64,000 nucleotides of DNA, taken from Yuukianura sp. NJ FZ-2021 (taxonomy: Eukaryota). The stretch spans positions 3,658,001 to 3,722,000 of the forward strand of contig CM102285.1 of NCBI GenBank assembly GCA_046563655.1, given 5' to 3'. A program made the translations under genes and the position numbers. Shown here one piece after another: positions 11,839-61,916 of the stretch; position 1 is the stretch's first letter; every line of letters begins with the position of its first letter. Below the pieces are notes generated by a model. That model did no database searches. It saw nothing but the letters and a program-made list of their open reading frames with translations, and had not been told where the DNA came from.

Positions 11839-12741
11839 CATAGATGGGCGTCCTCACTCAAAAAATCCTCAAAGAGGACGAAATCCTCAAAGAGGACGCG
11901 ATTTTGGATGAGGATTGAGTATAGATGATTTGAGGACCGATGGCCGGAAAGAGTATAGAGGATTGAAGTTTTGAGGATTGACTTTGAATGAGGATAGAGG
12001 TTTTGAGTATTTAAGGATACAGTATGAAGTGAGGATAGAGGATTAGAGTAGTTGAGGATTCAAATTTACTTGAGGATTGAGTATTTGAGCACTCCTCAAT
12101 TTCGCAATTCCTAACAAATTGAGTCAAATGAGACATCCCCAGACATCCCGCTAACACCCGCGGTTGTTTCAAAGTTGAGCATGAGCTTTGATCCTATTTC
12201 TTCTCTTCACTATTATTCTTTTGTATCATCAGCTGCCACTGCCAATAGTATAGTTCGAAGTGGTGTGTATCTAATTTAAATTAGTTAGTGAACAACATGT
12301 CGTCGAACTTAAAACAGGCAACACCCGAGTTTGTCCTGTCTGATTAATGACGAGGAAGTTACAAGAAATCGAATCTTCGTCATCTGCAAAAGTTATCAAC
12401 CGTCTACGTTACAAGAAAGTTACTGGTGGTGTTCCTGACGCTGTTAGGTTAGGTTAATTAAATTGAATATTTAGTCTGAAATAAAATTGACTTGGTGAAC
12501 CAAACTTTATATATAGTTATTTTCACTTAATTGAGGATAGAGGTTTAAGGATTTGAGGACATTATTAGGATTGAGGATAGAGGATTTGAGGTTTTAAGGA
12601 TTGGGATACCAATGAGGATGAGGTTTTGAAGATTTGAGGACTAGAAATCGAGTGAGGATAGAGGAGAAGAGTATTTGAGGATCGGGAATCGATTGAGGAT
12701 AGAGGATTTGAGGACGTCCTCTTTGAGGATGCCCATCTATG
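11839..12741. mobile_element. MITE with CATAG..CTATG termini and 8-bp TSD (P/hAT-like), copy 1
   Basis: TIR catagatgggc(g/a)tcctca. TSD ctctcttc at 11831-11838 and 12742-12749. GAGGAT-rich subterminal repeats. Near-identical inverted copy at 42054-42896. Confidence 0.9.
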
Positions 12742-13559
12742 CTCTCTTCATTTTCAAAGCTAAACAACCAAAAATTGAAACTACTCCGTGAAATAACGGC
12801 AGAACGACATTGCTCTGAAGCGAATTGCTTCCAATGAATTGCCACGAAACCAATTGTGGCGAAAGGGAAATTGCTCCGAAAAACAAGTTTTCCCACACTG
12901 AATAAACTTACGATAATGTACTAAGCGTGAAGTATAGTTTAGGTTATAAATCATAAGGTTTGGCCATCAATCATGACATTACACTTGGTTGAGTTATAAG
13001 TTTACAATACTATTTTCAGAGCAATCTGACTTTCGAAGATATTTACGTTTCGGAGTAAATGGTTTCGCAGGAACTTATTCGGAGCAATTGCATGGAATCA
13101 TGAAATAACTAATAACCATCCACGAGGCTGACTTTTACATGAAAAAAATGAAGAAAAAGTCTTTGAAACTAAAAATCTAAAGAAAAATCTCAAAAAATTG
13201 ACTTAAGAGCAGAAAAAAATCTCCACAAAATTGTTTAGCTACAATTTCCAAAAAAAAGTCGTTTAGAACAAGATGCTTGAAGAGTTGGATTTCTTTTTGT
13301 CATTTTATTTTGATTTTTGAATAGAAAAAGTTAAAGCCCTTGTAGGCATGACATATTTGACGCAATAAGCTTAGCACTGGATAAATTTAAAAAACGATTC
13401 AAAAATTACGAAGTTTAAAAAAAAATGAAAAATTAAGAAATGAATAAATTAGGTTTGAAAAAATATGTTTAAGAGTGTTTAGCATACTGAGCATAGGTTT
13501 TTGACGGATTAGCATACGAACGGACAAGACAAGTAACAAAATGTCGTTCAATTCCAGTT

Positions 13560-14798
13560 TTACTCCTCCGTGTCCATGTCCTCCTCATTCTTCTTTTTCT
13601 TTCCCTTCTTCTTTGGCAAAAGTTCCGGAGCAATGTGCGGCACAACGCCACCTTGTGAAATGGTCACGCCCTGAAGAAGCTGTTTGAGTTCATCGTCATT
13701 TCGAATGGCCAGTTCAATGTAGCGCGGGGAAATTCGCCCTCGATTGTTATCCTTGGCAGCTTCTCCAGCAATTTCCAGTACTTCAGCTACCAAGTACTCC
13801 AGTGTAGCAGCCATGTACACAGCAGCGCCAACTCCAATACGTTCAGCGTAGTTGCCTTTGTGCATCAAACGCCGAATCCGACCAACTGGAAATTGGAGAC
13901 CAGCTCTGTCGGACTTGGTTTGCTTCTTCTTTGGCGGTTGCTCAGCGGCGCTGGGGCCGGCAGTATTTGGCACTTCTTCGTCCGTTTCGGTATCCATGGC
14001 AGCAGCAGCGGTCGATGCAAAAACTTTTTGTTTCCGGCCACGCTTTTTCGGCTCAGCATTGTTGACCTTGGAGCCGCTTGGTTTCTGTGACGTCTGGCTC
14101 TTCGGATCTGCGTTTTTTGCTTTCCCTGACGCACTGGACCCCTTCGGATCTGCGTTTTTTGCTTTCCCAGAAGCGCTGGACCCTTTCGGATCGGCGTTTT
14201 TTGCTTTCCCTGAAGCGTTGGGCCCCTTCGGATCGGGGTTTTTCGTTTTCCCAGCGTCGGACCCTTTCGGAGTTGCGTCTTTTGTTTTCCCAGAAGTGCT
14301 GGACCCATTTGGAGGCGTAGTTTTCGTTACATTAGGCAGAACGGTAGCAGTTTTGGACGGACGCTTGTCGCTTGGCTCACTCTCTGGAGAAGGCGTTGCC
14401 GAGTCGAGTCTGCGAACCTTCAATTTTGGACCAGTCTTTGCTCCTCCTGGGCGCTTCGGTGCAGCAGTTGACGGTTTCGGATTGTTGTTTACCAAGGGCA
14501 AAGTGTTTCCCTCCTCATCAGATTCGGATTCGGAACCACCGCCAGTCTCTTGCGAGGACTCCAAAGCAGTGTCATCTCTGGAAGCATTCGGCTCGTTATT
14601 TTCTTCATCTTCATCGCTCTGTTGTTCTTCTTGTGTCCCTGTGACTGCTTCGTCGTCCAAATCCATTTGGCTCGTTTCTGTCACTTCCGTACTGTCCACT
14701 TGCTCTGGCCCAGTTTCGTCAGCGACCGATCCGTCTCCAGGTTCAGTATCTTCAAAAATGGTTGAGTTTCCTTCATCTTGTTGACTTTCGTCCTCCAT
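13560..14798 (-). CDS. Histone H2A variant with a very long acidic/basic N-terminal extension (~412 aa, coding region intronless)
   Basis: C-terminal histone fold [64 protein letters not shown] at 14798 follows a probable 5'UTR intron (14814-14872). Confidence 0.9.
14098..14310 (-). repeat. Coding tandem repeat, ~42-nt unit, about 5 copies ([14 protein letters not shown]) in the H2A variant tail
   Basis: Repeated ttcggatctgcgtttttt(g)ctttccc units, also visible in the translation. Confidence 0.85.
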
Positions 14799-15807
14799 GA
14801 TGTTCAGCAGGAGCTGCAAAAACAAGCAAACAATTCTTATAGTGCTGTGAACGCTAACTTATGTGTGTAAACCTACACTACGGACGCGCAACTTTGAAAC
14901 ACGAATCTGATTACAACGAAATACATACGTTTTGTTGACCGTGCATAAACGGCACGGTTCATTACGTAAACATTAGTTAAAAGGTTATGGTTACCAATGA
15001 AATGAAGAAATTCGACTTTGGCTTGACGATACGAGTAACCTCGGAGTGACCTTCCGCTGCTGACCTTGCCACTGCAACGTGTGACACCGTCGGAACCTGG
15101 ACGTGGACTGAAGGAAATTTGTACAAGGAACTGACAAATACACCTTGTCCCTCCAAGACGTCCGCCCAATGTCAGATTTTTACTAACCAAGGTCGAGGCA
15201 GGGAAATCCATGATACTTTACTGTGAAGGTTAAGTTAACGTCCTACAAAACTTTATCATTCGAGTTCAATGCTCTTTTAGACGTTCTTTCATTTGCTTCA
15301 ATTACTAGTGGTTGTTACAACTAGGGTTTTCCTTGAAAGCCAACATTTCATTTATTAATCTTTCAAAATCATAGCATAAAGATATTGATGACACTGCTAA
15401 CTTACATAATTAACATGTTAATTTACTCATTAAGGTTAGCTAAACTAGAACACATTTCATGTGCATAACGAAAACATCTCAGCGTGCCTTGCAGATGTCC
15501 GATCCGTTAGTTCCCAGGATTAGTCTCCCCTTCAAAGTTTTGAATCAGGATAAATTTTTGTACATAAATTAATTTCAAAATGATTGTAAACGAAAAGGAA
15601 GTTAACATTGCAACTGTGCAAGACATTTGTCATTTCTAATTATAAATCAGCATGGATTAATCGATCGCTTGAACATAGGTTAGTGGATTCTTTGTTCAGA
15701 ATGTGACTTACTCGCTCGAATGAGCGCAAGGGTATTCGGAGTGAAAATTTGACCTCGGAAAAGGTGGTTGGCCCTTAAGCAATAATACTTGGAGCTAACG
15801 AACAGAC

Positions 15808-17895
15808 ATGTCAGGGACTACAGCTCAATCGTCATCAGACGAACTAGTTCCCAATGTGATAAGTATCAGGCTTGTTCGTGACCATTTGAACGTCGTTGGA
15901 CTCCAATCGTCACAATACCTGGATGCTGTTCAGGTACGATTGATGTCTAATGTTATGAAAATGAAGTTCTAAGAAATAGAGTTTTGTTTTAATAATGTTT
16001 GCTAATGGATGAATATGGATTTCAATGTTACAGGCTCACTTGGCTGCATTTATTAACTCGGTCAATGCAAGAGCATCTCTAGCATACGCAAATACTATTC
16101 GATGGATCGATGACCTTGATATTGGCCAAAGGAGTTCGGTGTACTGGGACGTGGTTGTCCAGAAAGTTGATAATCTTTTAATCGCCTGTAGAAACCTTGA
16201 AATCTATGATCATCTCTCTCCTTTTGTGACGAATGCCAGGGCATTCTTTGGAAACGACGGTGAGAAAGGAAACGTATTTAAATAGAATCATGTATTTTAT
16301 GTTCATTCCTAAGTTTTTTTTCCTTTTACAGTTTACAAGCAAGCGATTTATTTTGGATTTGCTGGCCTTGTGACGGGTGGAATGATTGGGCTCTGCATAG
16401 GATACACAGCGAAGAAAACATCTAGTCATTACTTTCCTTCGCCTGGAAATACACCGCCAACTCTCATGAGAGCAATTCTATGCAGCAAGTCTCGTAGAGG
16501 CATTGACGTATGTATTTAAATCAAGTTAATTGAGTAGATAATGACACGCCTTGTTTTTCACAGGGCATTACCCTCGGGATGATACCCGTACCAAGGCAGA
16601 TTGGAAGTCACGAAGTGTTAGTCCAAGTGAAGGCTATGGGTCTGGACAACATTGATGTTCGAATAACTGGGGGATACGGACATTTGCTGAGGCGTCATTT
16701 GTTTCATAGATCGGTTAGAATCAAATAAACTAGAGACAGAAAAAGCTAACGAGGGAACAGGTTTAATTGTATGTAATAATTGTGTTTTTCAGATACATGA
16801 ACCGTTTGTCCTAGGAAGAGAATGCTCAGGAGTCGTCCTGGAAGTTGGAAGTGAAGTTAAATCCTGCGCGGTCAGTGACCGTGTGTGGATCACCGTGCCC
16901 CTTTGGGCTCCAGTCGGTCTCATGTCAGAATACACCGTAGTCTCTGAAAAATACGTGGGGCTTATGCCAAGAAACATTAGTTTTGAAGGTGCAGCAACAC
17001 TACCTTACGCCGCCGTTGTAATTTGGAATCAAATTCTACCAAAGTCTGATCTCCGTCTACACAACTCCAAAAGCAAACGGGTTCTTGTTCATTTGGGGCC
17101 TACAAGTAAAAATGATGGAGTAGGGTTGCTAGTAACCCAAGTCTTGAAATCATGGGGGGCTCGAGTCACAATTTCAACTGTAGAAACCACACGAACAGTA
17201 ATGGATCATGGTGACGAAGACGATGAACTAAAAGATTCTGGTTCAGGATCAAGCGTAGCACAGATGACGTTCCTGCGTACTCTTGAATCTCTCGGTGCAG
17301 AAACACATCTTTTTTTACCGAATGATTCCGAATTACTTCCAGATCTGGCGCAGAGGTAAGCCATTCCTTAAAGTTTTTTTTTTTGAGTAACTACTGGTTT
17401 CTTTTTCTCAGTATTTTTTCTAATCCATGATTCTAGGATCTTCGACGTTGTTGTGAACACTGATTCTTCAACAGTTACACCGCTCTTGGCAAATTTTCTC
17501 AAGGATCCCAACGACCGCGTGATTGAAAGTAACCCACAGCATTTGACTCGGAGATCTTGTTGGAACTTGTTTTATCTTTTAGAATCAGCCATAAGCTACT
17601 TCTTTAAAACGGTGAGCAACACCTACTAAAAAGTACGTTACTGCTTTTGTTCGTTTGTTTAAATAATTTCCATATGTTGTTGCACTATCAGGCGGAGGAA
17701 GAATCCTACCATTTTGCGCTTGAGGAATGTCGACGGTTAGTGGAATTGGGATTCGTCGTTCCAGTGGTTTCACGATCTTTCCTCATGAGTCAATACGATC
17801 AAGCATTTCGCCATGTTTCCAATACTTCGAATTCTGCCTTAGCTCATGTTGGAAAAAGTGTTCTAGTATTGAAAACCTTGCCATCACCTGCATGA
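15808..17895 (+). CDS. RTN4IP1-like MDR/quinone oxidoreductase family protein; exons 15808-15933, 16034-16259, 16332-16507, 16564-16713, 16793-17355, 17437-17611, 17692-17895
   Basis: In-frame spliced motifs HEVLVQVKAMGLDNIDVRITGGYG, FVLGRECSGVVLEVG, PRNISFEGAATLPYAA and GKSVL, typical of the RTN4IP1/zeta-crystallin family. Confidence 0.75.
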
Positions 17896-32510: not shown

Positions 32511-35427
32511 TTAGAAAGTTGGCACGCGTGGTTTGACAAGAGCGTGGAAAGGCTGTGGACTCAGCGTGAATCCAATCAGAGGCTCAGTGCTGGGCAGAGG
32601 GTGCGACGGCGCTTGCTCGAAAGTGAACTTCTGGAACATCGTCGTGACGAACGTGAATATTGACGCCTTTGCTAACTGCTCACCCAGACACATCCGTTTT
32701 CCTGTATCAACAATATCGGTTAAGTGTGGAACGGAATTCTACCAGAGATTTCCGTAACCACCTGATGGTGATTGTTATGAATGAAACTATCGTTAAGCCA
32801 TTTAAATATATCGACTTTCCAACGGAACTGCTTGGTCTGGTTACAAATACAAGGTTTGTGTAGTCCACGAAATGTTCGTTACACAACAGCGATTTAGCGA
32901 GGTTTACACCCAGGCGAACGCGAATACATCAATTAAACCACAGTATTTTTTACCGCCAACTTCCCTAAAGCTTTTAAATGCATCGATTTTTTAAAATGCA
33001 ACTACTTGATCTAGTTACAAATACAGGGCTTGTAGGGCCCATGAAAAGATGGTTACACTTACACTACTGCGAATGGAATGCAATTCCGTTTTACCGCATA
33101 GCCCAACGTCAACACATCAATTACATTACTATCACGTACTTTGGCTACTATTTTTACCGCCAAATTTAAAAACAAGTCCTCACCTGCTCCAAACGTCAGA
33201 ATTTTGTCGGCATTGACCACTTGACCCTTGGGGTTAAGAAATCGGTCAGGTCGAAAAGCCAATGGATCACCCCACATCTTCTCACTCATGTGCATAGCGT
33301 GTAGGTTGATCATAGCAGCACACCCCTTTATAATGAAAATTCGTCAACACAAACATGAGACTGCCATTTCCACCAATCAGTGTTCTGATTGGTGGAATGT
33401 AACGTTGGATCTCGGTAGACTTGCCTTAGGAATTGTGTAGCCACGGAGTGTAGTTTCTTTCACTGGAGCACGGACGTCAATCGGAATTACAGTCGCATGT
33501 CTACAACGAAAAAGAAGCATAACAGTGCCCTCTATCTTTGATTCTTTTGTCCGAAGTACATAACTACTGTGTTACCTCTGTATTTCCAAAATAGTGGCTT
33601 CGCAATAAGGCATTCTGTAATGACAATTTTTTTTCACTGAATGTGTCACGGTTAAGTCAAGGATAAGTAAATCATGTTACTTGGGTTTGTCTGAAATGCA
33701 GGGACAACGTTTGAAACCTACTACGGCATCAATCTCAGCCTGTACTTTTTTCTGTACTTCGGGATACTTTATCAAGTAGAAAAAGGCAAATTCAATTGAG
33801 TTTGCTGTCGTCTCGGAACCTGTTCATTTCGTTTTCAATATACAAAATACAAGTTAACATGCAGCATATCAGATAAAAATCTTTTTAAAAACCAACCTGC
33901 CGTGAACAAGTCCATGGTGACTGTCACGAATTGTTCATCTGAAATCAGTTAATTCAGAACTTTGTTTATAAGAATATGGGGAAGCACGGCTTCGTCGGAA
34001 TTTGAAACGGAAATTCTTTATGTTGTAAAATTCTTAATTATAAAACTATGGGGTGAATTCATTTATTTTGAAATATCTAGTATGTGAATTAATTTCTTCC
34101 GAAATTTTAAGCTGAGTTTGCTTTTTGAAAATTTTGCCTGAATTCATTTTTTGTGAAATTCTTACTTAAATGTATATTTTGTGTACTTACCAGTGTAAAC
34201 GTTAGTTTCAGGGTTATCTTCTCGGTGTGCGTCAATTTGAGATAGAAAAACGTCAACGTAGTCGCGCTGTTCCGTTACATAACCTCCCTCAGCTCGACGT
34301 TCGTCCAATGTATTCTACGGCAATAATACGTTTAATTCCTACGGCTTAGTAAATTTAAAATCTTGGATACGCTGCATAGAATAAAAAAGTATAACCTGGA
34401 AAAAAGATTGTAGCCGATGTACGTTCTCAGCCATGCGAACGTCGTATGTCGAAAATAGCGGCATTATTTTGGCCAAGAACGGGAATGCGGAGTACAAGTA
34501 CACTGGGGACGTCAATTCTCCAATGGAATTCATCCTCGCTTCTTCTGCAATTACACTGAGCAATTGTTTCAATTTTTTGTCGTCATGACAGAACCGTCTT
34601 CCGGCAATCATGGACCAGAGAACATTAAGTACTGACACGGTAAAGAGTTGCTTCATGGCTACAATTCCGCCTTCACCAATGTCACTCTGGAGTCGACTTG
34701 TCAAATCCACTAATTCCTCCTCTAACACGCTCTTCATGCTTTTCTGTTTCCCAAAACCAAAGTCCCGCAGCGTCCTCATGCTGAATCTTCGCATTTCCTT
34801 CCACACTGGGCCACTAATCATTGTAACTCCTGTCAATTTTTTTGTTAATTAATTTTGTTAATCTAACTCAACGTAAGAAGCATTCATTTGAAATTAATCA
34901 AGGTGCAAATAAATTTGTTTTTCTGACCTAGAATCTTTCCGTAGGATTTCTTGGTCATCCACTTGCTGTAGTAGCGGTCAACCCAGACGTCGTCGGTGAG
35001 CACTTCCTTGATGATGTCGTAGTCCTCCAGTATAACTGGAATAGAACAAATGTGTTAAAGTAAAAATTATTTGCGCCAACCGAACCAAAAACTACCGGTG
35101 AATGACAGTCAAATAACAAGCGTCAAATTTAAAAAAAACGGGGTCAGAACGAAAAACTTGAAAGACTAAAGAAACTGGATTTTGTTTGCACTTAGACTGA
35201 CTTTGGTATATGACGCCCAATTGGATGAACGTGATTGGTCCGTATCTGGCTGACAGTTCATGGAATGTTGCAAACGGCGTGTCCTTCTTCCACAAACCAA
35301 ATTGGACTACGTTCCCAATTCCAGGAAGTCTCCATGGTCCAGGCGGAAGATTCTTCGGTAACCTAGTTCTAAGTTTAAAACAAATTAGAGAAAAGATGGC
35401 TACCAGGATGAGAACTACGTTCAACAT
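32511..35427 (-). CDS. Cytochrome P450, CYP2 clan (CYP15/303-305-like), copy A; 10 exons
   Basis: N-terminal anchor plus LPPGP, WKEMR, AGSETT, EIQR, FRPDRF and the heme motif FGAGKRMCLG. The frame is intact if intron 33326-33424 is GC-AG. Confidence 0.92.
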
Positions 35428-36447
35428 TCCAAGCGGTCGGATGCACTTTGTGTCGGTAAATATTGTCGACGGATAAAGTGAATTGGAAAAGCAGTGCTGT
35501 CCCAGTTGTGGATTGAAGCCTGTTTTTCTATCTTCCACTTCTTTTATATTGGGAAGCGCAGAGAGTCATACGAAGTATGACCATATTACTATAATTACGT
35601 CCGCTGGGCTATTACTACATCAGTTTCCATTAAATTAAAAGTAAAAACATCAAAGGAAATTTATATTAGTTTCAAGTCGAGATCGTGGGACTAATCTGAT
35701 AGGGTTATTCTATATCGTTATATCGTAAATCAGGTTACGTTGGATTGACGTACATTTTAACATTGACTAATTAATGACGGCCTAATTACTTTAAATATTT
35801 TGAACCGATAGAGCGTCATTGGCGTAATACGTCAACGTTGGATGTTGAAAAATTGGAGATAATTTCATCCAGTTGGCCAAATACTGGATTATGCACTTTA
35901 TGACCGTGGTATAATTCCCAACATATCATCGCTTTAGATCAGTGTATCATCAAGATCACTCGGAATGAAGTACCTAGTAGTTTTGTAGAAGTCGAAGTTT
36001 CCAGAAGGAGATGGTTTGCCATGAGCTATATAAAATTACATTTTGGTTCTAGGAACATAAAATGTGGAACGAGACGAACACTTCTACATTGTAGGTTTGA
36101 AATTCAGGACATATTAATTTTTTTTTGCCTGGTTCGAAAATTCTAATTAGTACACATATAAATTATATCATATGTGTTGCGCTGGACATGGGCGTCGCCC
36201 AAAATAATATTGTGTAACAACAAAAACCTTGTATGCTCTTACTATACAAATGACAAGAAAAGCTAAGGAGAAGAGCTCCGTTCAGGATAAGGTTTTTATT
36301 GAGACTGCTTGTAGCTATACATATTTTCACTTATCCAAGCAATTTTTGTGTTTATGTTAAAATCAATAAAAGTGACACTTATCACCATATCACCTTGGTC
36401 CGATTGAAATTAAGATTTTATAGTTTGAGCTCAACAAGCGTTGGGTG

Positions 36448-39353
36448 TTAGAAAGTTGGCACGCGTGGTTTGACGAGAGCGTGGAAAGGCTGTGGACTCA
36501 GCGTGAATCCAATCAGAGGCTCAGTACTGGGCAGAGGGTGCGACGGCGCTTGCTCGAAAGTGAACTTCTGGAACATCGTCGTGACGAACGTGAATATTGA
36601 TGCCTTTGCTAACTGCTCACCCAGGCAAACCCGTTTTCCTGTATCAACAATAATTCTATGGTTAAATAATCGGTTAAATAACTTAACAGAATTCTATCAT
36701 AAATATTTATGTAACCACCGCCATATCTGCAACCACTTGATGTTGTTGGTTTATATAACTATGGGATAGTGATGTGTTCCCTTAAAGCTTTTCAATACAT
36801 CGAGTTTCTAAATCGAATTACTTGATATCGCTACAAATACAGGTATGCATAGCCCACGAAAAGATGGTTACGCTTAAACTACTTCGAATGGAATTTCGTT
36901 TTACCCCAGCCGAAGGGCAACACATGAATTATATTGCAAGCACATACTTTGGCTACTATTTCTACCGCCAAATTTAAAAATAAGTCCTCACCAGCTCCAA
37001 ACGGCATAATTTTGTCGGCATTGACCACTTGACCCTTGGGGTTAAGAAATCGGTCAGGTCGAAAAGCCAATGGATCACCCCACATCTTCTCACTCATATG
37101 CATTGCATGTAGGTTGATCACAGCAGCACATCCCTTTAATAACGGAAATTCGTCAACACTAACATAAAACCACTATTTCCACCACCGAATCTTCTGATTG
37201 GTGGAATGCAAACATTTGACCTCAGTAAAGCTTGCCTGAGGAATTGTGTAGCCTCGCAGTGTAGTTTCTTTCACTGGAGCACGAATGTCAATCGGGACTA
37301 CATTCGCATGTCTACAATAATTAAAAAACATAATTGGTCAAATAAACTCAAATTAAATTCTGCGCCCTCTACTTTTGATTTTTTTCTGTCCGAGGAAGAT
37401 ACTGATACTACTGGCTTACCTCTGTATTTCCAAAATAGTGGCTTCGCAATACGGCATTCTGCAATGACAAAAATTGTTTTCGTTGAATGTGACACGACAG
37501 TCATTGACACGGTTATGTCAAGGTTAGCGTAAATGATATTACTTGGGCTTGTCTGAAATGCAGGGAGCACGTTTGTAACCTACTACGGCATCAATCTCAG
37601 CCTGCACTTTTCTCTGCACCTCGGGATTCTTCATCAAATAGAAAATTGCAAATTCAAGTGTGTTGCTTGTCGTTTCGGAACCTGTTCGTTTTGTTTTCAA
37701 CATAAGTCACATTAATAGATTTTTATTTCATCTTTTATTAAAAACCAACCTGCCATGAACAAATCCATGGTGACCGTCACGAACTGCTCATCTGAAATCA
37801 GTCATGTCAAAACCATGTTTATAAGAATAGGCGGAAGTACAGTTTTCTCAGAAGTTAAAGCGGAAACTCTTTTGCGGAATTAATTAGTAATTTCATGTGA
37901 AATTCTTCAAATCACGTGAAATGTAAATTTTAGTTCTGAAATTCGCATTTATTCATAAATGCTTGGATGAGTTCATCTCTTGAATTTTCTTTTTATGAAT
38001 TCACTTGTTTTTTTTTTTGTTTTTTTTGTTTGTTTGTTTGTTTTTTTTTTTTTGTAAAATTGCTTGGTGAACTTGCGTCTTATGTTGTATATTGCTTACC
38101 AGTGTAAAGGTTAGTTTCTGGGTCATCGTTCTTGTGTGCATCAATTTGGCACAGAAAAACGTCAATGTAGTCGCGCTGTTCCGTTACATAACCTCCCTCA
38201 GCTCGGCGTTCCTCCAACGTTGTCTGAAAATAGTCATGCGTGTACTAGCTACGGTTTTAGCAAGTTTGAAGTCTTAAATGAGTTAAACGGCTTCGAGCCA
38301 CATCACTATATTTACAAAAATTATTTTTTAAATATACCTGGAAGAAAGTTTGTAGTCGGTCTAAGTTCTCAGCCAAACGAATTTCGTGTGTCGAAAAGAG
38401 CGGCATAATGTTGGCCAGGAACGGAAATGAGGAGTACAAGTACAATGGGGACGTCAATTCTCCAATGGGATTGTTCCTCACTTCTTCTTCAATTACAGTG
38501 AGCAATTGCTTCAATTTTTTGTCGTCATGACAGAACCTTCTTCCGGCAATCATGGACCAGAGAACATTAAGTACTGACACGGTAAATAGTTGCTTCATGG
38601 CTACAATTCCACCTTCACCAATGTCACTCTCGAGTCGACTCGTCAAATCAAGTACCTCCGCCTCCAATTCGGTCTCCATGCTCTTCTGCTTCCCAAATCC
38701 AAAGTCCCGCAGTGTTCTCATGCTAAATCTTCGCATTTCCTTCCACACTGGGCCACTAATCATCAGAACTCCTGTCAAATTTTTTTGTTAATTAATCTAT
38801 CTCAAGGTGAAAAACATTATGTAGTTTTTCAGTTAATCAAGGTGCCAATAAATTTGTTTTTGTCTGACCTAGAATCTTGCCGTAGGATCTGTTCGCCATC
38901 CACTTGCTGTAGTAGCGGTCAACCCAGACGTCGTCCGTGAGCACTTCCTTGATGATGTCGTAGTCCTCCAGTATAACTAGAATGGAACAAGGTTTTAGCA
39001 TACCAATTGTTTGCACATCAAAGCAAGCCAAAAACTAACACTTCATGAAAAAAAAAAGCGCCAAATTTAAAAAAAAAATACGAAAAACGCTGGAAATACT
39101 TGACATTTTGTTGGCAGTTGCACTGACCTTGGTAGATGACGCCCAATTGGATGAACGTGATTGGTCCGTACCTGGCTGAAACTTCATGGAATGTTGCAAA
39201 TGGCGTCTCCTTCTGCCACAGACCGAGTTGAACCAAGTTCCCGATTACAGGAAGTCGCCATGGTCCAGGCGGAAGATTCTTCGGCAAGTGGGCTTTAAAT
39301 TTGAAGCAAATTAGGAAGAAGATGCCTGCGAGGATTAGGATTTCGTTCAACAT
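36448..39353 (-). CDS. Cytochrome P450, CYP2 clan, copy B; 10 exons
   Basis: Same exon structure and motifs as copy A (FGAGKRVCLG). GC-AG intron at 37134-37235. Confidence 0.92.
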
Positions 39354-41795
39354 TCCAAACCGTCCGATGCACTTGTTGCTTGTTATTGTTGATGTTGACA
39401 GATGAAGTGAAATGGAAATGCAGCGGTGTATCCGAGCCCAGTTGTTGATTGAAACTGGTTTTTTATCTTCCACTTCGTTGATGATGGGAAACGCAGAAAG
39501 TTATGCGAACTTTGAGCAGATGAATTCCCTGGCATTATAGTAGGTTTGTTACTATCTTTCCACAACTCTCGAGAACATATCAGTGGATTCACATTTACAC
39601 CCAATGGCCGTTGACCTCTGGAGGATTTAACCCCCTCACTCCAATCCTAATCTAATCGACACGTAGCAACGACACGTCGAAACTCATCTTGGTTAGGTTG
39701 GAGACAAAATACGCAAAATTCAAAAGCGGAGCAGGTTAGTGAGGTAAAGGTTAGGTTTGGTTAAGGTTGGAAAACTGGAAATGTTATGGTTCACTGCAAT
39801 CTCCCCTACCAAGGGCATGTGACCAGAATTTTTGACAGTGTAGCATGCACATCATCATTGTCAATTAAAGCTACCCATGTTTTTCACCACACAAACATTA
39901 AAACTCCCTATTGCTGTATAACCGTCCTAAATTACGCGCATGCACTTCACCAAGGAATCTCCTAGATCAGATAGGAGAAAGGTTCCTTACAACAACGGTG
40001 CTTTCTCTGATTCCCAGCATTTGTTCCAGCGTCAGCATCAACATGAAGCCTGATAAATGATATATCATTTATGTTTGTATAGGTGCGAACTTCGTAGAAA
40101 AGTATCTCCCTAAGTTGTAATACGTAGCGTCCGTATTTGAAATCGGCACATTTCTCGTAAACTGCTGAAATTATTATGGCAGTACACAGGAATTTACTCG
40201 TAGGAGTCCAAAAAGCAGTGTAGAACCTCACTCCTTCAGGGTTACATTAAAATGGTTTAACTTCACGCCATTTTAATTGGATTTGAGTGCTGTTATAAAA
40301 GAGAAACGAGAATGTTATGAAAAAAGAATAGTAAGTATTTTATTGCCACGTGGGAAATAACCAAAACTCAGATTGTTCTCACGATGCAGGGTTTAACTTT
40401 TGAATAAAAATTTGATTACGGCTTTATGCTAACATGTCAGCGTGCGAGTAAATCTTTTGTCAATGAGCCGTTGGCGTATAATGTGAACCTGTTGTCCAAT
40501 TAAAAATAGTTTCCAGTTGACCAAATACTGTACTCTGTAGTATGAACCCATGGTTAAATTCGCAACGAATTCCAACAATCACTTTAATGGAAGTTAGACG
40601 TTTGTAGAAGAGGTGGATTTTCTGCCCGAAAATATAAAACCTTGGTTATGTACAAAAAAAAATTCTTTTGCCTGAAGAAGCTTTAAAATGGTTCTACGAG
40701 TATAAAACGTGATAGAATTAAAATGAACATTCTCTTATATTACGATTGTAATTTTGAAATTCAGTTATAATTAATTAATTACATTTGAACAGTGTAAACG
40801 TTTTGCCAGGTGTGAACATTATAATTACATTTAATTAATTGTAAGATGTGTTGCGTTTGCGCTGGAATTGGACTTTGTCCAAAAAATAATTTTTAGCAGA
40901 AACTTTTACACCCTGTATGTCGAAAAAATTAGCACCACAATTCGAAATAAGAAAATTCTATTGAAAAGCCAATGTAACTTGTTGGAGGTTTACAGGATCA
41001 AAAAACGTATAAAAAGTTGTAAAAAGACAAAAATTTGGACTATGAGCGTTTTTTTTTGTTGCAGTACTAACAGAACATTCTCTCGTTCAAAAAAGTGTTC
41101 CACCTTACAAAGTTTTATGAGATAAAAACACTTTGAAAATGGTTTCTGTAGACAAAAAAATACATAATGGACCGTTTCAGCTTTTTTTCATATCAAAAAT
41201 AAAAAATATCTACAATAATTATGACATTTAACCTTACGTGACCAACAAACATTACTTACATTACATTACAAAAAATCACGTTAATTTTTATATAGGTATG
41301 TTAGTTCATAAAAATTTACTCCTTAAAAGACTTTTGCCGGAAATTAAGCCACAAATCTTGGTTTATCATTGCGCGTGAGTACTGAACATAATAAAACTAT
41401 TTTTTGTTTTGATAGATTTTATCAAGACAAAAAATATTGATTTTTTTGAATACATTGACCCTTTACATAAAATAAAATCTTGGATTTTAATTTTCAGCAA
41501 TTAGTTGTTCTAATTTGTCTTAATTAATCAATGAGTATGAACAAATTTCCTTGTACTTCCAATAATCAGGCGCTAATTGATTTGTAAATTTACTGGGAAT
41601 GAAAGTGTCACTCCTAATTTTATATAATAATGTCTGGTTAGTTTAGTTTGACAAATTCATGAACAATTATTTGCACAAGGTGAAAGTACTGCCATAACCT
41701 TTTCGATTTCTTCCTGATGTAGTGAAAATGGCCTATTGGCCTAAAAAAAAAGACAACCCACTACAAAGTTTTGTTTTGCCTTCCTTGGTGGAAGG

Positions 41796-44310: not shown

Positions 44311-47300
44311 CTAGAAAGTTGGCATGCGTGGTTTGACGAGAGCATGGAAAGGCTGTGGACTCAGCGTGAATCCAATCAGGGGCTTGGTGCTTGGCAGAGG
44401 GTGCGACGGCGCTTGCTCGAAAGTGAACTTCTGGAACATCGTCGTGACGAAGGTAAATATTGACGCCTTTGCTAACTGCTCACCCAGACATACTCGCTTT
44501 CCTGTATCAACAAGATTGGTTAAGTGTGGAACAGAATTTTACCAGATATTTATGTAACCACTGCTATATCTGTAGTAACCACCGGATGTTGTTTCGAAGC
44601 ACGCCATTACATCGAAAAAAAAGACATCGAAGGAAAAGACATCGGAGAAAAAGACATCGAAAAGAAACACATCGAAAATAGAAACACATCGAAAATATAA
44701 ACACATCGAAACAAAAGACATCGAAAAAAAAGACATCGAAAATGCAAACACATCGAAACAAAAGACATCGAAAACTAACCTCAGCCAGCCAAACTACGCA
44801 CGCAATCACTATTGCGTGCTTTACCAAACCTAGCGCCAAACCTAAAGTTTTCATTTTTAGACTGAAACTGCACGCACAAATTTCGTTGGAATTTCCGCGC
44901 CGAAGGCGCGGCGTTAGGTTTGGTAAAGCACGCAATAGTGATTGCGTGCGTAGTTTGGCTGACTGAGGTTAGTTTTCGATGTCTTTTGTTTCGATGTGTT
45001 TGCATTTTCGATGTCTTTTTTTTCGATGTCTTTTGTTTCGATGTGTTTATATTTTCGATGTGTTTCTATTTTCGATGTGTTTCTTTTCGATGTCTTTTTC
45101 TCCGATGTCTTTTCTTTCGATGTCTTTTTTTCGATGTAATGGCATGGACCCTGTTGTTTATGTAACTATAGGCTATGTTGCCTTAAAGCATCCAAAATGT
45201 GTCGATTTTCCAGAATCAACTACTTGATCTGGTTACAAATACGGGGTTTGTATAGCCCACGAAAAGATGGTTACACTTACTCTACTGCGGACACACCAGC
45301 CGAACGTCAACACGTAAATTACATTACAAGCACTTACTTTCGCTAATATTTTTACCGCCAACTTTAAAAATAAGTGCTTACCAGCTCCGAACGGCAAAAT
45401 TTTGTCGGCATTGACCACTTGACCCTTGGTGTTAAGAAATCGGTCGGGTCGAAAAGCCAATGGATCTCCCCACATCTTCTCACTCATGTGCATAGCAGGT
45501 AGGTTGACCACAGCAGCACATCCCTTTAATAACGAAAATTCGTAAATACTTAACACATAGAACCACTATTTCCACCACCGAATCTTCTGATTGGTGAAAT
45601 GCAATGTTGGATCTTGATAGAGCTTGCCTGAGGAATTGTGTAGCCACAGAGTGTAGTTTCCTTAATCGGAGCCCGGAGGACAATTGGCACAACATTAGCA
45701 TGCCTACAATTACAAAAGCACATACCAGCGCCGTTTATTACCTTTGATTTTTTTTTCTCCGAAGCTGATACAACATTGTTACCTCTGTATTTCCAAAATA
45801 GTGGCTTCGCAAAAGGGCATTCTATAATGACAAAAATTGTTTTAATGAATGTGCAACGACAGTCTATGGCGCGGTAATATCATTGTTACTGTAAATCATG
45901 TTAGTACTTTGGTCTGTCTGAAATGCATGGGCAACGTTTGTAACCTACTACGGCGTCAATCTCTGCCTGTACTTTTCTCTGTACCTCGGGATTCTTCATC
46001 AGGTAGAAAATGGCAAATTCTAGTGTGTTGCTTGTCGTCTCGGAACCTGCTCATTTCGTTTTCAACGTACAAAATACAAGTTAACAAGCAACACATCAGA
46101 TTATAAAAAATCTTATTAAAAACCAACCTGCCGCGAACAAGTCCATAGTGACTGTCACGAATTGTTCATCTGAAATCAGTTAAGTCAGAACCTTTGTTTG
46201 TAAGAACATGGGGAAGTACGGCTTTGTCGGAATTTGAAACGGAAATTGTTTGGGGAATTCTTAGTATGTTGTTGAATTCTTAATCTCAACCAGGGGGCGG
46301 CAAAAATGCCTTAGCGACCAAAACCGATTCTTTATTTGTTTACAATTTCACTCACAGTGACGTCACTCCGAGTGAAAATACAGGTTCATCCGAGTTTTTA
46401 AGCTATGTTTAAGTTTGCGGCGAAAGTATTGAGACTAAAATGATGAAAATTTTGAACAACACTGTAAATGAGTGAACTCGGAGTCAAAGAGATCCCATAG
46501 CAACTCAGTTTTGAAAAAACAATTTTAAACAACCGTACCTATAAGTATTCTATTTACCTTGAATCTCAACGTGTTTCTCGTGATTTATAAAATTCTGGAA
46601 TGAATTCTTTTTTTTTTTGAAATTTTCAGACGAATTAATTTTTTCCGAAATATGAGTTTGCTTTTGACAATTCCGTATGAATTCATTTTTTGTGAAATTC
46701 TTACTTAAATTTGTTGCACCAACCCGTTCGGCCCCCTTTTGAAAAATTTTCAGGAAAATTTTCAAAGTATCGAGTTAATGATCCCCCAAGACAACCTCAA
46801 AAATGACCTCTACGAAAGTTATTCAGCTCGATGAGGGGAACATTTTTTTGTCTTTGACCCTGTGACCTTCCCCAGAGGTCAAAGGTCAATTTGAAGGTCA
46901 AACTAGAAAAAAAACTTTTTTCATACTTTTTGACGAAACGAACGATTTGGTTGCGATGACCTCCGTGACCCCAAAAAGGACAAAAAATCATTTTGCTAAC
47001 TTTTCATAAAAATGACTTGGGGAGTGGTAATAGAGGTAACGGAGGTCATCGCAACCATAAATATCGTTCGTTTCGTCAAAAAAAATGAAAAAAAGTTTTT
47101 TTTTTAGTTTGACTTTTAAATTGACCTATGACCTCTGGGGAAGGTCACAGGGTCATAGGTCACAGGACAAAAAATGAATCCTCGCATTAAGCTGAATAAC
47201 TTTTACTGAGGTCATTTTTGAGGTTGTCTGGAGTCATCAACACAGTACTTTGAAAATTTTCGGGAAAATTTTTCAAAAGTGGGGCCGAACGGGTTGGTGC

Positions 47301-48550
47301 AACCCTTAAATGTTATATATTTTATGTACTTACCGGTGTAAAAGTTAGTTTCTGGGTTATCGTCCCGGTGTGCGTCAATTTGACATAAAAAAACGTCAAT
47401 GTAGTCGCGCTGTTCCGTTAGGTAACTTCCCTCAGCTCGGCGTTCGTCCAAGGTATTCTAGGGTAATAATACGTTTAATTCCTACGGCATAGCAAAAATC
47501 TTGGATACGCTGCATAGAATAAAAAAGTATACCTGGAAAAAAGATTGAAGTCGATGTACGTTCTCAGCCATACGAACTTCGTATGTCGAAAATAGCGCCA
47601 TAATTTTGGCCATGAACGGGAATGAAGAGTACAAGTAGATTGGGGACGTCAATTCTCCCATAGAATTCATCCTCGCTTCTTCTTCAATTACAGTGAGCAG
47701 TTCTTTCAATTTTTTGTCGTCATGACAGAACCGTCTTCCGGCAATCATGGACCAGAGAACATTAAGTACTGACACGGTAAAGAGTTGCTTCATGGCTACA
47801 ATTCCGCCTTCACCAATGTCACTCTGGAGTCGACTTGTCAAATCAAGTAACTCCTCCTCTAGCACGCTCTCCATGCTCTTCTGTTTCCCAAATCCAAGCT
47901 CCCGAAGCGTTCTCATGCTAAATCTTCGCATTTCCTTCCACACTGGCCCACTAATCATTACAACTCCTATCAATTTTTTATTGTAAGTTAATCTCAACGT
48001 AAAAAGCATTTTCATTTTGGAATTAATTTGGGTGTAAATAAATTTGTGTTTTTCTGACCTAGAATCTTTCCGTAGGATATCTTGGTCATCCACTTGCTGT
48101 AGTAGCGGTCAACCCAGACGTCGTCCGTGAGCACTTCCTTGATGATGTCGTAGTCCTCCAGTATAACTGGAATAGAACAAATTTGTTAAAATTACAATTA
48201 TTTGCGCCAACTGAATCAAAAACTACCGCTGGATGAAAGTAAAATAACAAGCGTCAAATTTAAAAAAAAACGAGGTCAATAGAACGAAAAACTTGAAAGA
48301 CTGGATTTTGTTTGCACTTAGACTGACCTTGGTACATGACTCCCAATTGGATGAACGTGATTGGTCCGTACCTAGCTGACAGTTCATGGAATGTTGCAAA
48401 CGGCGTGTCCTTCTTCCATAGACCAAACTGGACCAAGTTCCCTATTCCAGGAAGTCTCCATGGTCCAGGTGGAAGATTCTTGGGTAACCTGGCTCTAAAT
48501 TTGAAACAAATGAGGAAAAAGATGGCTAGGATTAGAACTAAGTTCAACAT
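44311..48550 (-). CDS. Cytochrome P450, CYP2 clan, copy C; 10 exons, introns expanded by three TE insertions
   Basis: All P450 motifs are in frame (AGSETT, EIQR, FRPDRF, FGAGKRVCLG). GC-AG intron at 45524-45627. Confidence 0.9.
44595..45151. mobile_element. Palindromic MITE with (acatcgaaaa)n arms in the last intron of CYP copy C
   Basis: Near-perfect inverted arms of ~240 bp, flanking duplication tgttgttt, and absent from the paralogous introns of copies A and B. Confidence 0.85.
46291..46561. mobile_element. TIR-less short element with 9-bp TSD, copy 3 (diverged subfamily)
   Basis: cagggggcg...gtattctatttaccttg. TSD aatctcaac (46282-46290, 46562-46570). Absent from the copy A intron. Confidence 0.8.
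46711..47305. mobile_element. Palindromic MITE related to 19933-20614
   Basis: Inverted arms ending gcaaccc, TSD ttaaat, and the shared internal gacaacctcaaaaatgacc. The empty site is visible in the copy A intron (~34165). Confidence 0.8.
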
Positions 48551-56670: not shown

Positions 56671-56741
56671 AGACAGTAGCGTACTTGTAACATTGATGAG
56701 AGCAACTGGATTTTGTAGTGTTTTGGTGAAAGTTAAAGACA

Positions 56742-60994: not shown

Positions 60995-61402
60995 GGAAAC
61001 CGCTCTATCGTTAGAGCTAACTTCTTTATGTGCAGTTTACAACCGGTTTATTTCATTTCGGTTGATTTCAAAATTATACGTCTTTCCCAAGGTTGCTATA
61101 GCAACGAAATTGTTTTGCTTTAAGAGGTTTGGCAATAACTCCTGCTTACGAAAAAATTCGCTCCAAAAAATTTTTTGTCACAATTTTTACCCAATCCCAT
61201 TTGATTGCATATAAATCATTACCATAGGAAGGCACGGTGAACCAAGTTTTGCTAATTTTTAAAGAAAATTTAAAACGCTTGAGTTATTGCCTAACCTGTT
61301 GAACAAAAAACTATTTTCTTGTTTACAAACCTTGGTCTTTCCCAACAAAAAAACAACGAAAATGTTGGAAATACTTGACTTTTTGTTGGCAGTTGCACTG
61401 AC

Positions 61403-61628
61403 CTTGGTAGATGACGCCCAATTGGATGAACGTGATTGGTCCGTATCTGGCTGAAACTTCATGGAATGTTGCAAATGGCGTTTCCTTCTGCCACAAACCG
61501 AGTTGAACCAAGTTCCCGATTCCAGGAAGTCTCCATGGTCCAGACGGAAGATTCTTGGGAAAACGGGCTCCAAATTTGAAGCAAATTAGGAAGAAGATGC
61601 CTGCGAGGATGAGGATTTCGTTCAACAT
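61403..61628 (-). pseudogene. CYP copy D: exon 1 and upstream region only
   Basis: Near-identical to exon 1 of copy B ([19 protein letters not shown]..), with upstream homology 39353-40815 vs 61628-64000. Homology stops near 61340 and no exon 2 is found downstream. Confidence 0.8.
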
Positions 61629-61916
61629 TCCAAACCGTCCGATGCACAGTTGTTGCTTGTTATTGTTGACAGATGAAGTGAAATGGAAATGCAGCGGTGT
61701 ATCCGAGCCCAGTTGTTGATTGAAATTGGTTTTTTTTATATCTTCCGCTTCGCTTATGGTGGTGGGAAACGCAGAACTCTCGAAATGAAATTCGAACACA
61801 TATCACGGGATTCACATTTGTCATTTATATCCAATGGACCTCTGGAGGCTTTAACCCCTTCCCAATCAAATTAGATTAGAACAATCGTTGCTAACCTAGC
61901 CAAAATGAGTTGGACG

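What the first reader, a model, noticed from the sequence alone, without database searches (positions are those of the whole stretch)
13560..14798. Giant histone H2A variant with a ~290-aa acidic-then-basic repeat N-terminal tail and an acidic C-terminal tip
Seen in sequence: an uninterrupted 412-aa ORF whose last ~120 aa are an H2A fold. It keeps the acidic-patch positions (LEY, AEV, LEI, NDDE) and the K118/K119 region ([11 protein letters not shown]), then ends EEDMDTEE. The N-terminus has ~100 D/E-rich residues, a P/K/S/T-rich segment, about five 14-aa [14 protein letters not shown] repeats and a PKKRGRK motif. Established knowledge: it lacks the H2A.X SQ(E/D)Phi end, the H2A.Z signature and a C-terminal macro domain, so it fits no variant class I recognise. 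It is solitary, has a probable 5'UTR intron and shows no histone stem-loop, consistent with a replication-independent gene. Inference: it may combine a linker-histone-like DNA-binding repeat tail with a built-in acidic chaperone-like domain, possibly for germline or specialised chromatin.
Basis: partly seen in the sequence, partly recalled or inferred. Interest (0 to 1): 0.85.

Follow-up and report, generated by a model that had tools for sequence, protein, structure and literature searches.

The report
Orphan giant-tailed histone H2A gene
An unannotated arthropod genome carries an intact gene for a histone H2A about three times the normal size, with a 290-residue floppy acidic-then-basic tail on its front end; no described H2A variant looks like it, but whether it is expressed or shared with other species could not be checked.

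Summary
A 412-codon ORF lies on the minus strand at 13560-14798. Its last ~120 residues are a clear H2A fold (Pfam PF00125 and PF16211; E~1e-43 to solved canonical H2As). The acidic patch, docking domain and LLPKK lysines are kept.

Residues 1-97 have 36 D/E and 1 K/R. Residues 98-258 have 35 K/R, five 14-residue repeats and KKRGRK. The tail matches no Pfam family and AlphaFold2 predicts no secondary structure in it.

The tail looks translated:
- It stays open in 0 of 25,000 shuffles.
- Its codon usage matches real exons of the window.
- Two repeat units differ by 5 bases, all synonymous.

No histone 3' stem-loop and no other histone gene was found nearby.

The fold sits on a long orphan branch. 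It has no SQ end and no macro domain, and it is less like H2A.Z than like canonical H2A. No orthologue turned up in 5.8 billion protein clusters, 1.84 billion representatives or two metagenome scans. No RNA run was listed.

Best reading (about 0.55): a lineage-restricted, replication-independent nucleosomal H2A with a disordered bipolar tail. The DNA-binding, self-chaperone and germline ideas remain untested.

The parts
13560..14798 (-). Complete single-exon coding sequence, 412 codons plus TAA stop (43.5 kDa, pI 5.1)
   Evidence: open in 0 of 25,000 shuffles of the first 289 codons
14508..14798 (-). Acidic segment, aa 1-97 (36 D/E, 1 [12 protein letters not shown] runs; one aromatic in an acidic context, STIFEDTE)
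   Evidence: codon-usage score +0.374 bits/codon in frame, negative in the other five frames; no secondary structure, pLDDT 42-52
14025..14507 (-). Basic P/K/S/T/G-rich segment, aa 98-258 (35 K/R, 11 D/E). It includes KR-x10-KLKVRR at aa 115-130, which resembles a bipartite nuclear localisation signal (my reading of the pattern, not tested)
   Evidence: codon score +0.144 in frame, next best frame +0.087
14100..14313 (-). Tandem array of 42-bp (14-aa) units, 5.2 copies, consensus peptide [14 protein letters not shown]
   Evidence: Units at aa 197 and 211 encode identical peptides but differ at 5 bases, all synonymous
14031..14051 (-). PKKRGRK, aa 250-256: basic cluster, NLS-like or imperfect AT-hook-like (RGRK rather than RGRP)
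   Evidence: no Pfam AT_hook hit
13932..14024 (-). Acidic/neutral linker, aa 259-289 (6 D/E, 0 K/R). It contains the internal Met268 (codon at 13995-13997) and the diverged remnant of the canonical H2A N-tail
13608..13931 (-). H2A histone fold and docking domain, aa 290-397 (predicted helices 295-298, 305-313, 325-350, 358-367, 369-374; acidic-patch positions kept; LLPKK)
13563..13607 (-). C-terminal tip, aa 398-412: KGKKKK then NEEDMDTEE; no SQ motif
14814..14832 (-). Pyrimidine tract plus CAG, a splice-acceptor-like site ending 15 nt upstream of the ATG (unverified)
   Evidence: read from the sequence
15040..15134 (-). Candidate non-coding first exon: two TCAGTY initiator-like motifs (15134, 15111) followed by donor-like sites (exon ends 15065, 15051, 15040). 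No ATG between them by my reading of the sequence (unverified)
13304..13309 (-). AATAAA, 251 nt downstream of the stop codon; candidate polyadenylation signal

Best explanation
This is a real, intact, replication-independent protein-coding gene of an unannotated arthropod. The best named match of a neighbouring gene is a springtail. The gene encodes a lineage-restricted, fast-evolving H2A variant.

Shown here:
- The C-terminal ~120 residues are a full H2A fold with acidic patch, docking domain and LLPKK lysines.
- The 290-residue N-terminal part is in the same frame, shows coding-type constraint, matches no known domain, and is predicted to be disordered.

Inferred:
- The fold pairs with H2B and enters nucleosomes like any H2A.
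- The tail leaves the particle where the normal H2A N-tail does, between the DNA gyres.
- Its histone-proximal basic half (net +24, K-rich 14-aa repeats, KKRGRK) binds nucleosomal or linker DNA and carries nuclear import signals.
- Its distal acidic half (net -35) folds back on the basic half or on histone surfaces before deposition, or recruits basic partners afterwards.

My odds:
- Full-length protein is made: about 0.7.
- It is nucleosomal: about 0.55.
- The bipolar tail works by DNA binding plus acidic masking: about 0.3.
For: H2A identity:
- Pfam and PDB matches.
- 66.7% identity to a canonical H2A over 105 aa.
- The query keeps the common residue at 60 of the 80 columns where at least 90% of 27 comparison H2As agree. 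The 15 fold-region differences (from residue 295 on) are mostly between similar residues, such as H/R, L/M, L/I, R/K, H/Y, Q/E.

The tail is coding:
- Its 289 codons are open in 0 of 20,000 and 0 of 5,000 shuffles.
- Codon-usage log-odds are +0.244 bits/codon in frame and <=+0.024 in the other five frames. Nine real exons of the window score 0.17-0.32. Four non-coding stretches are negative in all frames.
- The repeat unit is 42 bp, a multiple of three.
- Two units differ by 5 synonymous and 0 non-synonymous changes. P is about 8e-4 for a random pattern, but this was one pair picked post hoc out of 10.

Tail disorder: AlphaFold2 gives no secondary structure in residues 1-290, with pLDDT 38-53 per 10-residue block. 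Pfam finds 0 families at E<=10.

Replication-independent type: no histone stem-loop, solitary in the window, AATAAA downstream and a splice-acceptor-like site upstream.

The extension is unusual:
- In 80 metagenomic H2A loci the frame is open for a median of 33 codons upstream of the fold, and none has a real extension.
- The 21 long H2A-containing proteins cover only 20-29% of the query.
- The 25 of the best 150 representatives that I read all match it through the H2A fold only: tandem or partial fold duplicates, or ordinary H2As behind unrelated leader sequence. P0028, a divergent two-fold protein with its own ~100-aa acidic leader, is among them.
Against: - No expression evidence of any kind could be obtained.
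- No orthologue was found, so conservation of the tail and dN/dS are untested. A gene seen in one genome could be young or dispensable.
- Annotated springtail proteomes should be in the databases searched (my assumption), yet no long H2A relative appeared. The gene is therefore not broadly conserved, or it is missed by annotation.
- The tail is low-complexity. The opposite strand also carries a 310-codon open frame over the same DNA, so openness alone is weaker evidence than the shuffle count suggests.
- The codon score for the basic segment beats the next frame only narrowly (+0.144 against +0.087).
- An internal Met268 in a GCCATGG context could give a 145-aa H2A if a transcript started inside the ORF.
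- The fold lies on a terminal branch of 1.42 changes per column, against a median of 0.074. That could reflect relaxed constraint rather than specialisation.
- AlphaFold2 confidence for the fold itself is only 51-75 per 10-residue block.
Confidence: 0.55

Rival explanations
1. Only a short H2A is made. Transcription or translation starts inside the ORF (for example at Met268, giving 145 aa), and the upstream 267 codons are leader sequence or belong to a separate product.
For: Met268 sits in a GCCATGG context. The canonical H2A start aligns near residue 279. No transcript data exist to exclude an internal start.
Against: The upstream codons show coding-type codon usage in the same frame and synonymous-only differences between two repeat units. 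There is no stop for 289 codons. In the candidate first exon I saw no upstream ATG, so Met1 would be the first AUG (a model only).
Confidence: 0.12
2. A young chimeric or decaying gene copy with no lasting function. An H2A copy landed in frame behind a low-complexity exon, or lost its own start, and has not yet been broken.
For: No orthologue in any search. Very long terminal branch. The query differs at 20 of 80 near-invariant H2A columns, more than any of the 27 comparison sequences, whose maximum is 16.
Against: That much divergence without a single stop or frameshift in 412 codons argues for selection. Structural positions are retained. Repeat differences are synonymous. Codon usage is exon-like.
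Confidence: 0.13
3. A histone-fold protein that is expressed but not a stable nucleosome subunit, for example a soluble H2B-binding or histone-storage factor, or a regulator that uses the H2A fold as a binding module.
For: The whole protein is acidic (pI 5.1), unlike core histones. The canonical N-tail lysines are lost. Tetrahymena H2A.Y shows that chimeric H2As can have regulatory roles (passage and reference list of PMC3380720).
Against: The docking domain, acidic patch and LLPKK are all retained, and these matter mainly inside a nucleosome.
Confidence: 0.15

Closest known systems
Canonical (replication-coupled) arthropod histone H2A
   Same: The fold, L1 region length, acidic patch, docking domain and LLPKK are shared. 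Identity is 60-70%.
   Different: Canonical H2A is about 124 aa, sits in clusters and has a 3' stem-loop. This gene is solitary, has no stem-loop, and codes 412 aa. The SGRGK-type tail is replaced, there are 20 changes at near-invariant columns, and the C-terminal tip is acidic.
Tetrahymena H2A.Y (chimeric H2A with a non-histone N-terminal domain; Song et al. 2012, seen only as a citation and one passage in PMC3380720; the paper itself is not held)
   Same: An H2A fold at the C-terminus of a much longer protein whose N-terminal part is not histone-like.
   Different: The H2A.Y N-terminal part is a folded leucine-rich-repeat domain with phosphatase-regulating activity. Here the tail has no detectable domain and is predicted disordered. 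The organisms are a ciliate and an arthropod, so independent origin is almost certain.
Brown-algal H2A.N (PMC12459048, passages read)
   Same: Defined by an elongated N-terminal tail. Its C-terminal tail is rich in K, D and E. AlphaFold gave no trustworthy structure for its tail.
   Different: The H2A.N extension is about 30 aa against about 290 here. H2A.N has a QSLRA alpha-N motif, whereas this protein has [12 protein letters not shown]. The lineages are unrelated.
macroH2A and bdelloid H2Abd (PMC2642717, passages read)
   Same: H2A variants enlarged by non-histone sequence. The bdelloid tails are lineage-specific.
   Different: Their additions are C-terminal (a macro domain, or long C-tails with SPKK-like motifs). 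Here the addition is N-terminal and the protein ends 15 aa after LLPKK.
Sea-urchin sperm H2B/H1 N-terminal SPKK-repeat tails and long CenH3 N-tails (mentioned in PMC2642717; PMC2995078 abstract listing)
   Same: Repetitive basic N-terminal extensions on a core histone, thought to bind linker DNA. The tails are lineage-specific and unalignable.
   Different: A different histone (H2B, H1 or H3). This tail has no S/T-P-K-K motif. Its unit is [14 protein letters not shown], and it is preceded by a ~100-aa acidic block.
Acidic-tract histone chaperones and auto-inhibited chromatin proteins (nucleoplasmin, HMGB1 acidic tail; recalled, not searched)
   Same: A long D/E tract next to a bipartite-NLS-like element and basic sequence. 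Conceptually this allows charge masking of histones or of the protein's own basic region.
   Different: No nucleoplasmin core or HMG box was detected. No binding was shown.

Membership tests
Histone H2A (Pfam PF00125 + PF16211) | Histone-fold match above the curated cut-off | tested here: met
   PF00125: 41 bits against 26.4, residues 255-366
Histone H2A (Pfam PF00125 + PF16211) | H2A-specific C-terminal docking segment | tested here: met
   PF16211: 61.2 bits against 20, residues 369-403, full profile 1-35
Histone H2A (Pfam PF00125 + PF16211) | Acidic-patch residues and the LLPKK lysines | tested here: met
   LEY, AEV, LEI, NDDE and LLPKKK align with the canonical positions
Histone H2A (Pfam PF00125 + PF16211) | Dimerises with H2B and is incorporated into nucleosomes | not testable with these tools
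   Needs reconstitution or ChIP
Replication-coupled histone gene | 3' stem-loop (Rfam histone 3' UTR stem-loop) and clustering with other histone genes | tested here: not met
   No such match at E<=10 in 12000-16000; no other histone in the 64 kb
H2A.X | C-terminal SQ(E/D)-hydrophobic motif | tested here: not met
   The protein ends ...NEEDMDTEE
H2A.Z | Groups with H2A.Z rather than canonical H2A | tested here: not met
   55% identity to the H2A.Z doublet P0025 against 63-68% to canonical types. In the tree the two P0025 copies form their own starred pair without the query. Only one H2A.Z protein was available, so the test is thin.
macroH2A | C-terminal macro domain | tested here: not met
   No Macro family in Pfam; only 15 aa follow LLPKK
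Short H2A variants (H2A.B/L/P/Q) | Truncated docking domain and C-terminus, eroded acidic patch (definition recalled) | tested here: not met
   Docking domain and acidic patch are intact
H2A.W | KSPKK C-terminal motif (definition from PMC12459048) | tested here: not met
   No SPKK anywhere in the protein
H2A.N (brown algae) | About 30-aa N-extension with a QSLRA alpha-N motif | tested here: not met
   The alpha-N region reads [12 protein letters not shown]
H2A.Y (Tetrahymena) | N-terminal leucine-rich-repeat domain | tested here: not met
   0 Pfam families in residues 1-290 at E<=10
Linker histone H1/H5 | Winged-helix globular domain (PF00538) | tested here: not met
   No hit; no secondary structure predicted in the tail
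Nucleoplasmin/NPM chaperones | Nucleoplasmin core domain | tested here: not met
   No Pfam family in residues 1-290; no strands or helices predicted

The most novel reading that the evidence does not exclude
This is a self-contained 'histone plus accessory' module. It would be a nucleosomal H2A that carries its own linker-histone-like DNA-binding repeats and its own acidic masking or chaperone segment. It would be used by one soil-arthropod lineage for a specialised chromatin state such as gamete packaging, maternal histone storage, or chromosome elimination. It would then be the first animal H2A variant defined by a long N-terminal non-histone tail, an animal counterpart to Tetrahymena H2A.Y that arose independently.
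Probability: 0.15. Interest if true: 0.8.

Novelty: new variant of a known kind. Interest (0 to 1): 0.55.

Why it matters
In the papers I could search, H2A variants are defined by changes in the fold or the C-terminus. The longest N-terminal extensions I found described are about 30 aa (algal H2A.N) and the folded leucine-rich-repeat domain of ciliate H2A.Y.

If this protein is made and enters nucleosomes, it would put roughly 290 disordered residues, with a net -35 block and a net +24 block, at the point where the H2A tail passes between the DNA gyres. That would be a natural experiment in how tail charge and length affect nucleosome stacking, linker DNA binding and histone chaperoning.

It would also add an arthropod case to the pattern of fast-evolving, lineage-restricted histone variants. 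If it is not expressed, it is simply an unusual orphan ORF.

Tried and rejected
- **Whole genome of the window:** none is held, so paralogues and the species' own canonical H2A could not be examined.
- **Earlier notes of this scan:** nothing by place, sequence or words.
- **RNA evidence:** no RNA holder was listed for 13300-15300, so read laying could not be used. This says nothing about expression.
- **Exact protein look-up:** not in the 15-billion collection.
- **Orthologue searches:**
  - Whole protein among proteins of 226-721 aa: 21 hits, all covering only 20-29% of the query. Those with source names are models from fungi, nematodes, a snake, a fish and a beetle.
  - Residues 1-290: none of 8000 candidates at E<=0.01.
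  - Exhaustive HMMER on 1.84 billion representatives: 9720 hits, best 150 listed. I read 25 of them. All match the query through the H2A fold only, as tandem or partial fold duplicates or H2As behind unrelated leaders. Fragments of an orthologue made mostly of the fold could be hidden inside canonical H2A clusters.
  - 'Shorter' and 'longer' length classes were not searched, because the third search went to a neighbouring gene for taxonomy.
- **Metagenome scan 1:** six exact 8-residue motifs gave 129 stretches and 0 relatives.
- **Metagenome scan 2:** The best 80 are all 60-70% identical, the same as canonical H2A.
- **ESM Atlas:** the whole protein gave only H2A clusters at <=0.82. Residues 1-290 gave no usable hit.
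- **Tree:** 48 rows were used. These were the query, 14 hits (P0076 was dropped because my motif filter missed it), 6 half-copies of three doublets, and every third of the 80 metagenome H2As (27 of 80). The query pairs at 87 (unstarred) with a gecko H2A variant (P0046, named). Both are long branches, so I treat the pairing as attraction, not kinship.
- **Complex prediction:** fold 290-400 plus an insect-type H2B stand-in from locus L034, with acidic residues 1-100 as the partner. Result: no verdict, score 0.00 against a mark of 0.34, controls not run. This is no evidence either way.
- **Papers:** six searches found no description of an arthropod or springtail H2A with a long N-terminal extension. 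A Folsomia candida genome paper reports an H2A gene-family expansion in one strain without describing such a protein (PMC10087712, passages). Supplements were not available and might list such genes. Song et al. 2012 on H2A.Y is not held.

Full report
**The observation**

The minus strand carries an uninterrupted ATG-to-TAA ORF at 13560-14798 encoding 412 residues.

Pfam places the core-histone family at residues 255-366 and the H2A-specific C-terminal family at 369-403. Both are above their curated cut-offs.

Against all PDB chains, 209 distinct sequences match at E<=0.001. The 60 shown are all H2A (canonical, H2A.X, H2A.J), aligned to query residues about 290-401 with E near 1e-43. Drosophila nucleosome H2A is among them.

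The N-terminal part is strongly bipolar:
- Residues 1-97 hold 36 D/E and 1 K/R.
- Residues 98-258 hold 35 K/R and 11 D/E.
- Residues 259-289 are again acidic.
- The whole protein is 43.5 kDa with pI 5.1.

Tandem Repeats Finder reports a 42-bp unit in 5.2 copies at 14100-14313. The units begin at residues 170, 183, 197, 211 and 225. PKKRGRK is at 250-256.

**Is the extension coding or accidental?**

Four lines of evidence say it is coding:
- The 289 codons upstream of the fold stay open in 0 of 20,000 mononucleotide shuffles and 0 of 5,000 dinucleotide shuffles.
- I trained a codon-usage log-odds score on nine recognisable exons of the window (4155 nt). It gives the extension +0.244 bits per codon in the ORF frame and at most +0.024 in the other five frames. 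The training exons score 0.17-0.32 (they were not left out). Four non-coding stretches are negative in every frame.
- The repeat period is a multiple of three.
- The units at residues 197 and 211 encode the same 14 residues but differ at five bases, all synonymous. Only 30 of 126 possible single-base changes would be synonymous, so P is about 8e-4. This pair was picked after looking at 10 pairs.

Caveats:
- The sequence is low-complexity.
- The opposite strand has a 310-codon open frame over the same DNA.
- The basic segment's codon score beats the next frame only narrowly.

**The fold**

Among 80 alignment columns where at least 90% of 27 comparison H2As agree, the query keeps 60 and differs at 20. 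That is more than any comparison sequence (maximum 16). The differences inside the fold are mostly between similar residues.

The canonical SGRGK-type tail aligns to residues about 279-296 but is almost unrecognisable.

AlphaFold2, run with a 28-row alignment, predicts helices at 295-298, 305-313, 325-350, 358-367 and 369-374. It predicts no secondary structure in residues 1-290, where pLDDT is 38-53 per 10-residue block. Fold confidence is only 51-75 per block.

Residues 1-290 match no Pfam family even at E<=10, and there is no usable ESM Atlas cluster.

**Gene type and context**

- No match to the histone 3' stem-loop family appears at E<=10 in 12000-16000.
- No other histone motif or H2A-like tblastn hit occurs in the 64 kb.
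- An AATAAA lies 251 nt after the stop.
- A pyrimidine tract plus CAG ends 15 nt before the ATG.
- Further upstream there are two initiator-like TCAGTY motifs (15134, 15111) and three donor-like sites (15065-15040), with no ATG between them by my reading.
- A divergently oriented gene with an ADH_N domain begins near 15811 on the plus strand. This bounds the promoter region to about 1 kb.

All of this fits a replication-independent gene with a non-coding first exon. None of it is verified by transcripts.

**Which organism?**

No genome is held for the window, and the protein is not in the 15-billion-protein collection.

A neighbouring WDR83-type WD40 exon has unnamed metagenomic or metatranscriptomic best hits at 89, 81, 76 and 68% identity. 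Its best named hit is the springtail Allacma fusca at 53%. Insects score 40-45%.

The window also holds a tandem P450 cluster, a trypsin exon, an Isy1 exon and a Harbinger-type transposase.

I conclude that it is an unannotated soil arthropod, probably a springtail or a near relative. This is an inference.

**Relatives**

No orthologue was found:
- The word-indexed search over proteins of 226-721 aa returned 21 H2A-containing proteins. All cover only 20-29% of the query, and those with source names come from unrelated taxa.
- The tail alone returned nothing.
- The exhaustive HMMER search returned 9720 H2A relatives. Of the best 150 I read 25. All match the query through the H2A fold only: tandem or partial fold duplicates, or ordinary H2As behind spurious leaders.
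- Two metagenome scans found no relative above the 60-70% identity that any canonical H2A shows.
- In the 80 loci kept, the frame is open for a median of 33 codons upstream of the fold. The single long case (L027, 265 codons) is the antisense of a divergent H2B gene.

In a quick maximum-likelihood tree of 48 rows the query has a terminal branch of 1.42 changes per column, against a median of 0.074. It does not join the H2A.Z pair. It pairs without strong support with a gecko variant that is also a long branch. I read this as an orphan long branch.

**Classification**

Tested and not met:
- H2A.X end.
- Macro domain.
- Grouping with H2A.Z (only one H2A.Z protein was available).
- Short-H2A features.
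- KSPKK of H2A.W.
- QSLRA of algal H2A.N.
- Leucine-rich repeat of H2A.Y.
- H1 globular domain.
- Nucleoplasmin core.

These rest.

In six literature searches I found no arthropod H2A with a long N-terminal extension. The closest described ideas are:
- Tetrahymena H2A.Y, a chimeric H2A with a folded N-terminal domain (passage in PMC3380720).
- Brown-algal H2A.N, with about 30 extra N-terminal residues (PMC12459048).
- The C-terminally extended bdelloid H2Abd variants (PMC2642717).

Supplements were closed.

**Mechanism**

Shown: an H2A fold with all nucleosome-facing features, fused in frame to a constrained, domain-free extension that is predicted to be disordered.

Inferred from established nucleosome structure: the tail would emerge where the H2A N-tail passes between the DNA gyres.

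Inferred from charge and motif patterns only:
- The proximal K-rich repeats and KKRGRK bind DNA.
- KR-x10-KLKVRR (residues 115-130) and KKRGRK serve nuclear import.
- The distal acidic block masks the basic half or histone surfaces, or recruits basic partners.
- [12 protein letters not shown] runs resemble casein-kinase-2 sites.

A complex prediction for the acidic block against the fold plus an H2B stand-in gave no verdict and is not used as evidence.

**Verdict**

It is an unclassified, probably replication-independent H2A variant with a giant tail. The functional ideas are untested.

With no orthologue and no expression data it remains a well-supported lead rather than an established variant.

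Noticed in passing
window 34342-35565, 38260-39500, 45236-48108, 61326-61802 (minus strand): At least four tandem paralogous cytochrome P450 gene copies. Their exon peptides are near-identical (for example [25 protein letters not shown]). One exon was confirmed as PF00067.
   Followed up: partly
window 56730-58630 (plus strand): An uninterrupted 502-codon open frame (stop to stop) for a Harbinger/PIF-type transposase (DDE_Tnp_4 plus HTH_Tnp_4), with a cysteine-rich N-terminus. It is directly followed by a 133-codon frame with a CxC...CxH pattern and no Pfam hit. This may be a recently active element.
   Followed up: partly
window 14799-15811: The H2A-variant gene and a plus-strand gene with an ADH_N (zinc-dehydrogenase-like) domain are arranged head to head about 1 kb apart. 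This suggests a shared bidirectional promoter region.
   Followed up: no
protein P0028 (376 aa, MetaClust record): A protein with two different, strongly diverged H2A-like folds in tandem behind a ~100-aa acidic leader (43% identity to the query over matched stretches). Unlike the other double hits, its two copies are not identical, so it may be a real H2A-H2A doublet rather than an assembly duplicate.
   Followed up: no
protein P0032 (264 aa): A second doublet of two diverged H2A-like folds (45% identity to the query). The copies are distinct from each other. Source not looked up.
   Followed up: no
proteins P0173, P0176 and relatives: Intron-free full-length WDR83 sequences at 68-89% identity sit on 1.1-1.4 kb JGI contigs. 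This suggests that environmental metatranscriptomes contain transcripts of close relatives of the window's organism, and they could be mined for the H2A variant.
   Followed up: partly
window 13852-14781 (plus strand): A 310-codon open frame antisense to the H2A-variant tail. It is best explained by the tail's biased codon content: the corresponding frame scores only +0.024 bits/codon on the tail against +0.244 for the sense frame.
   Followed up: yes
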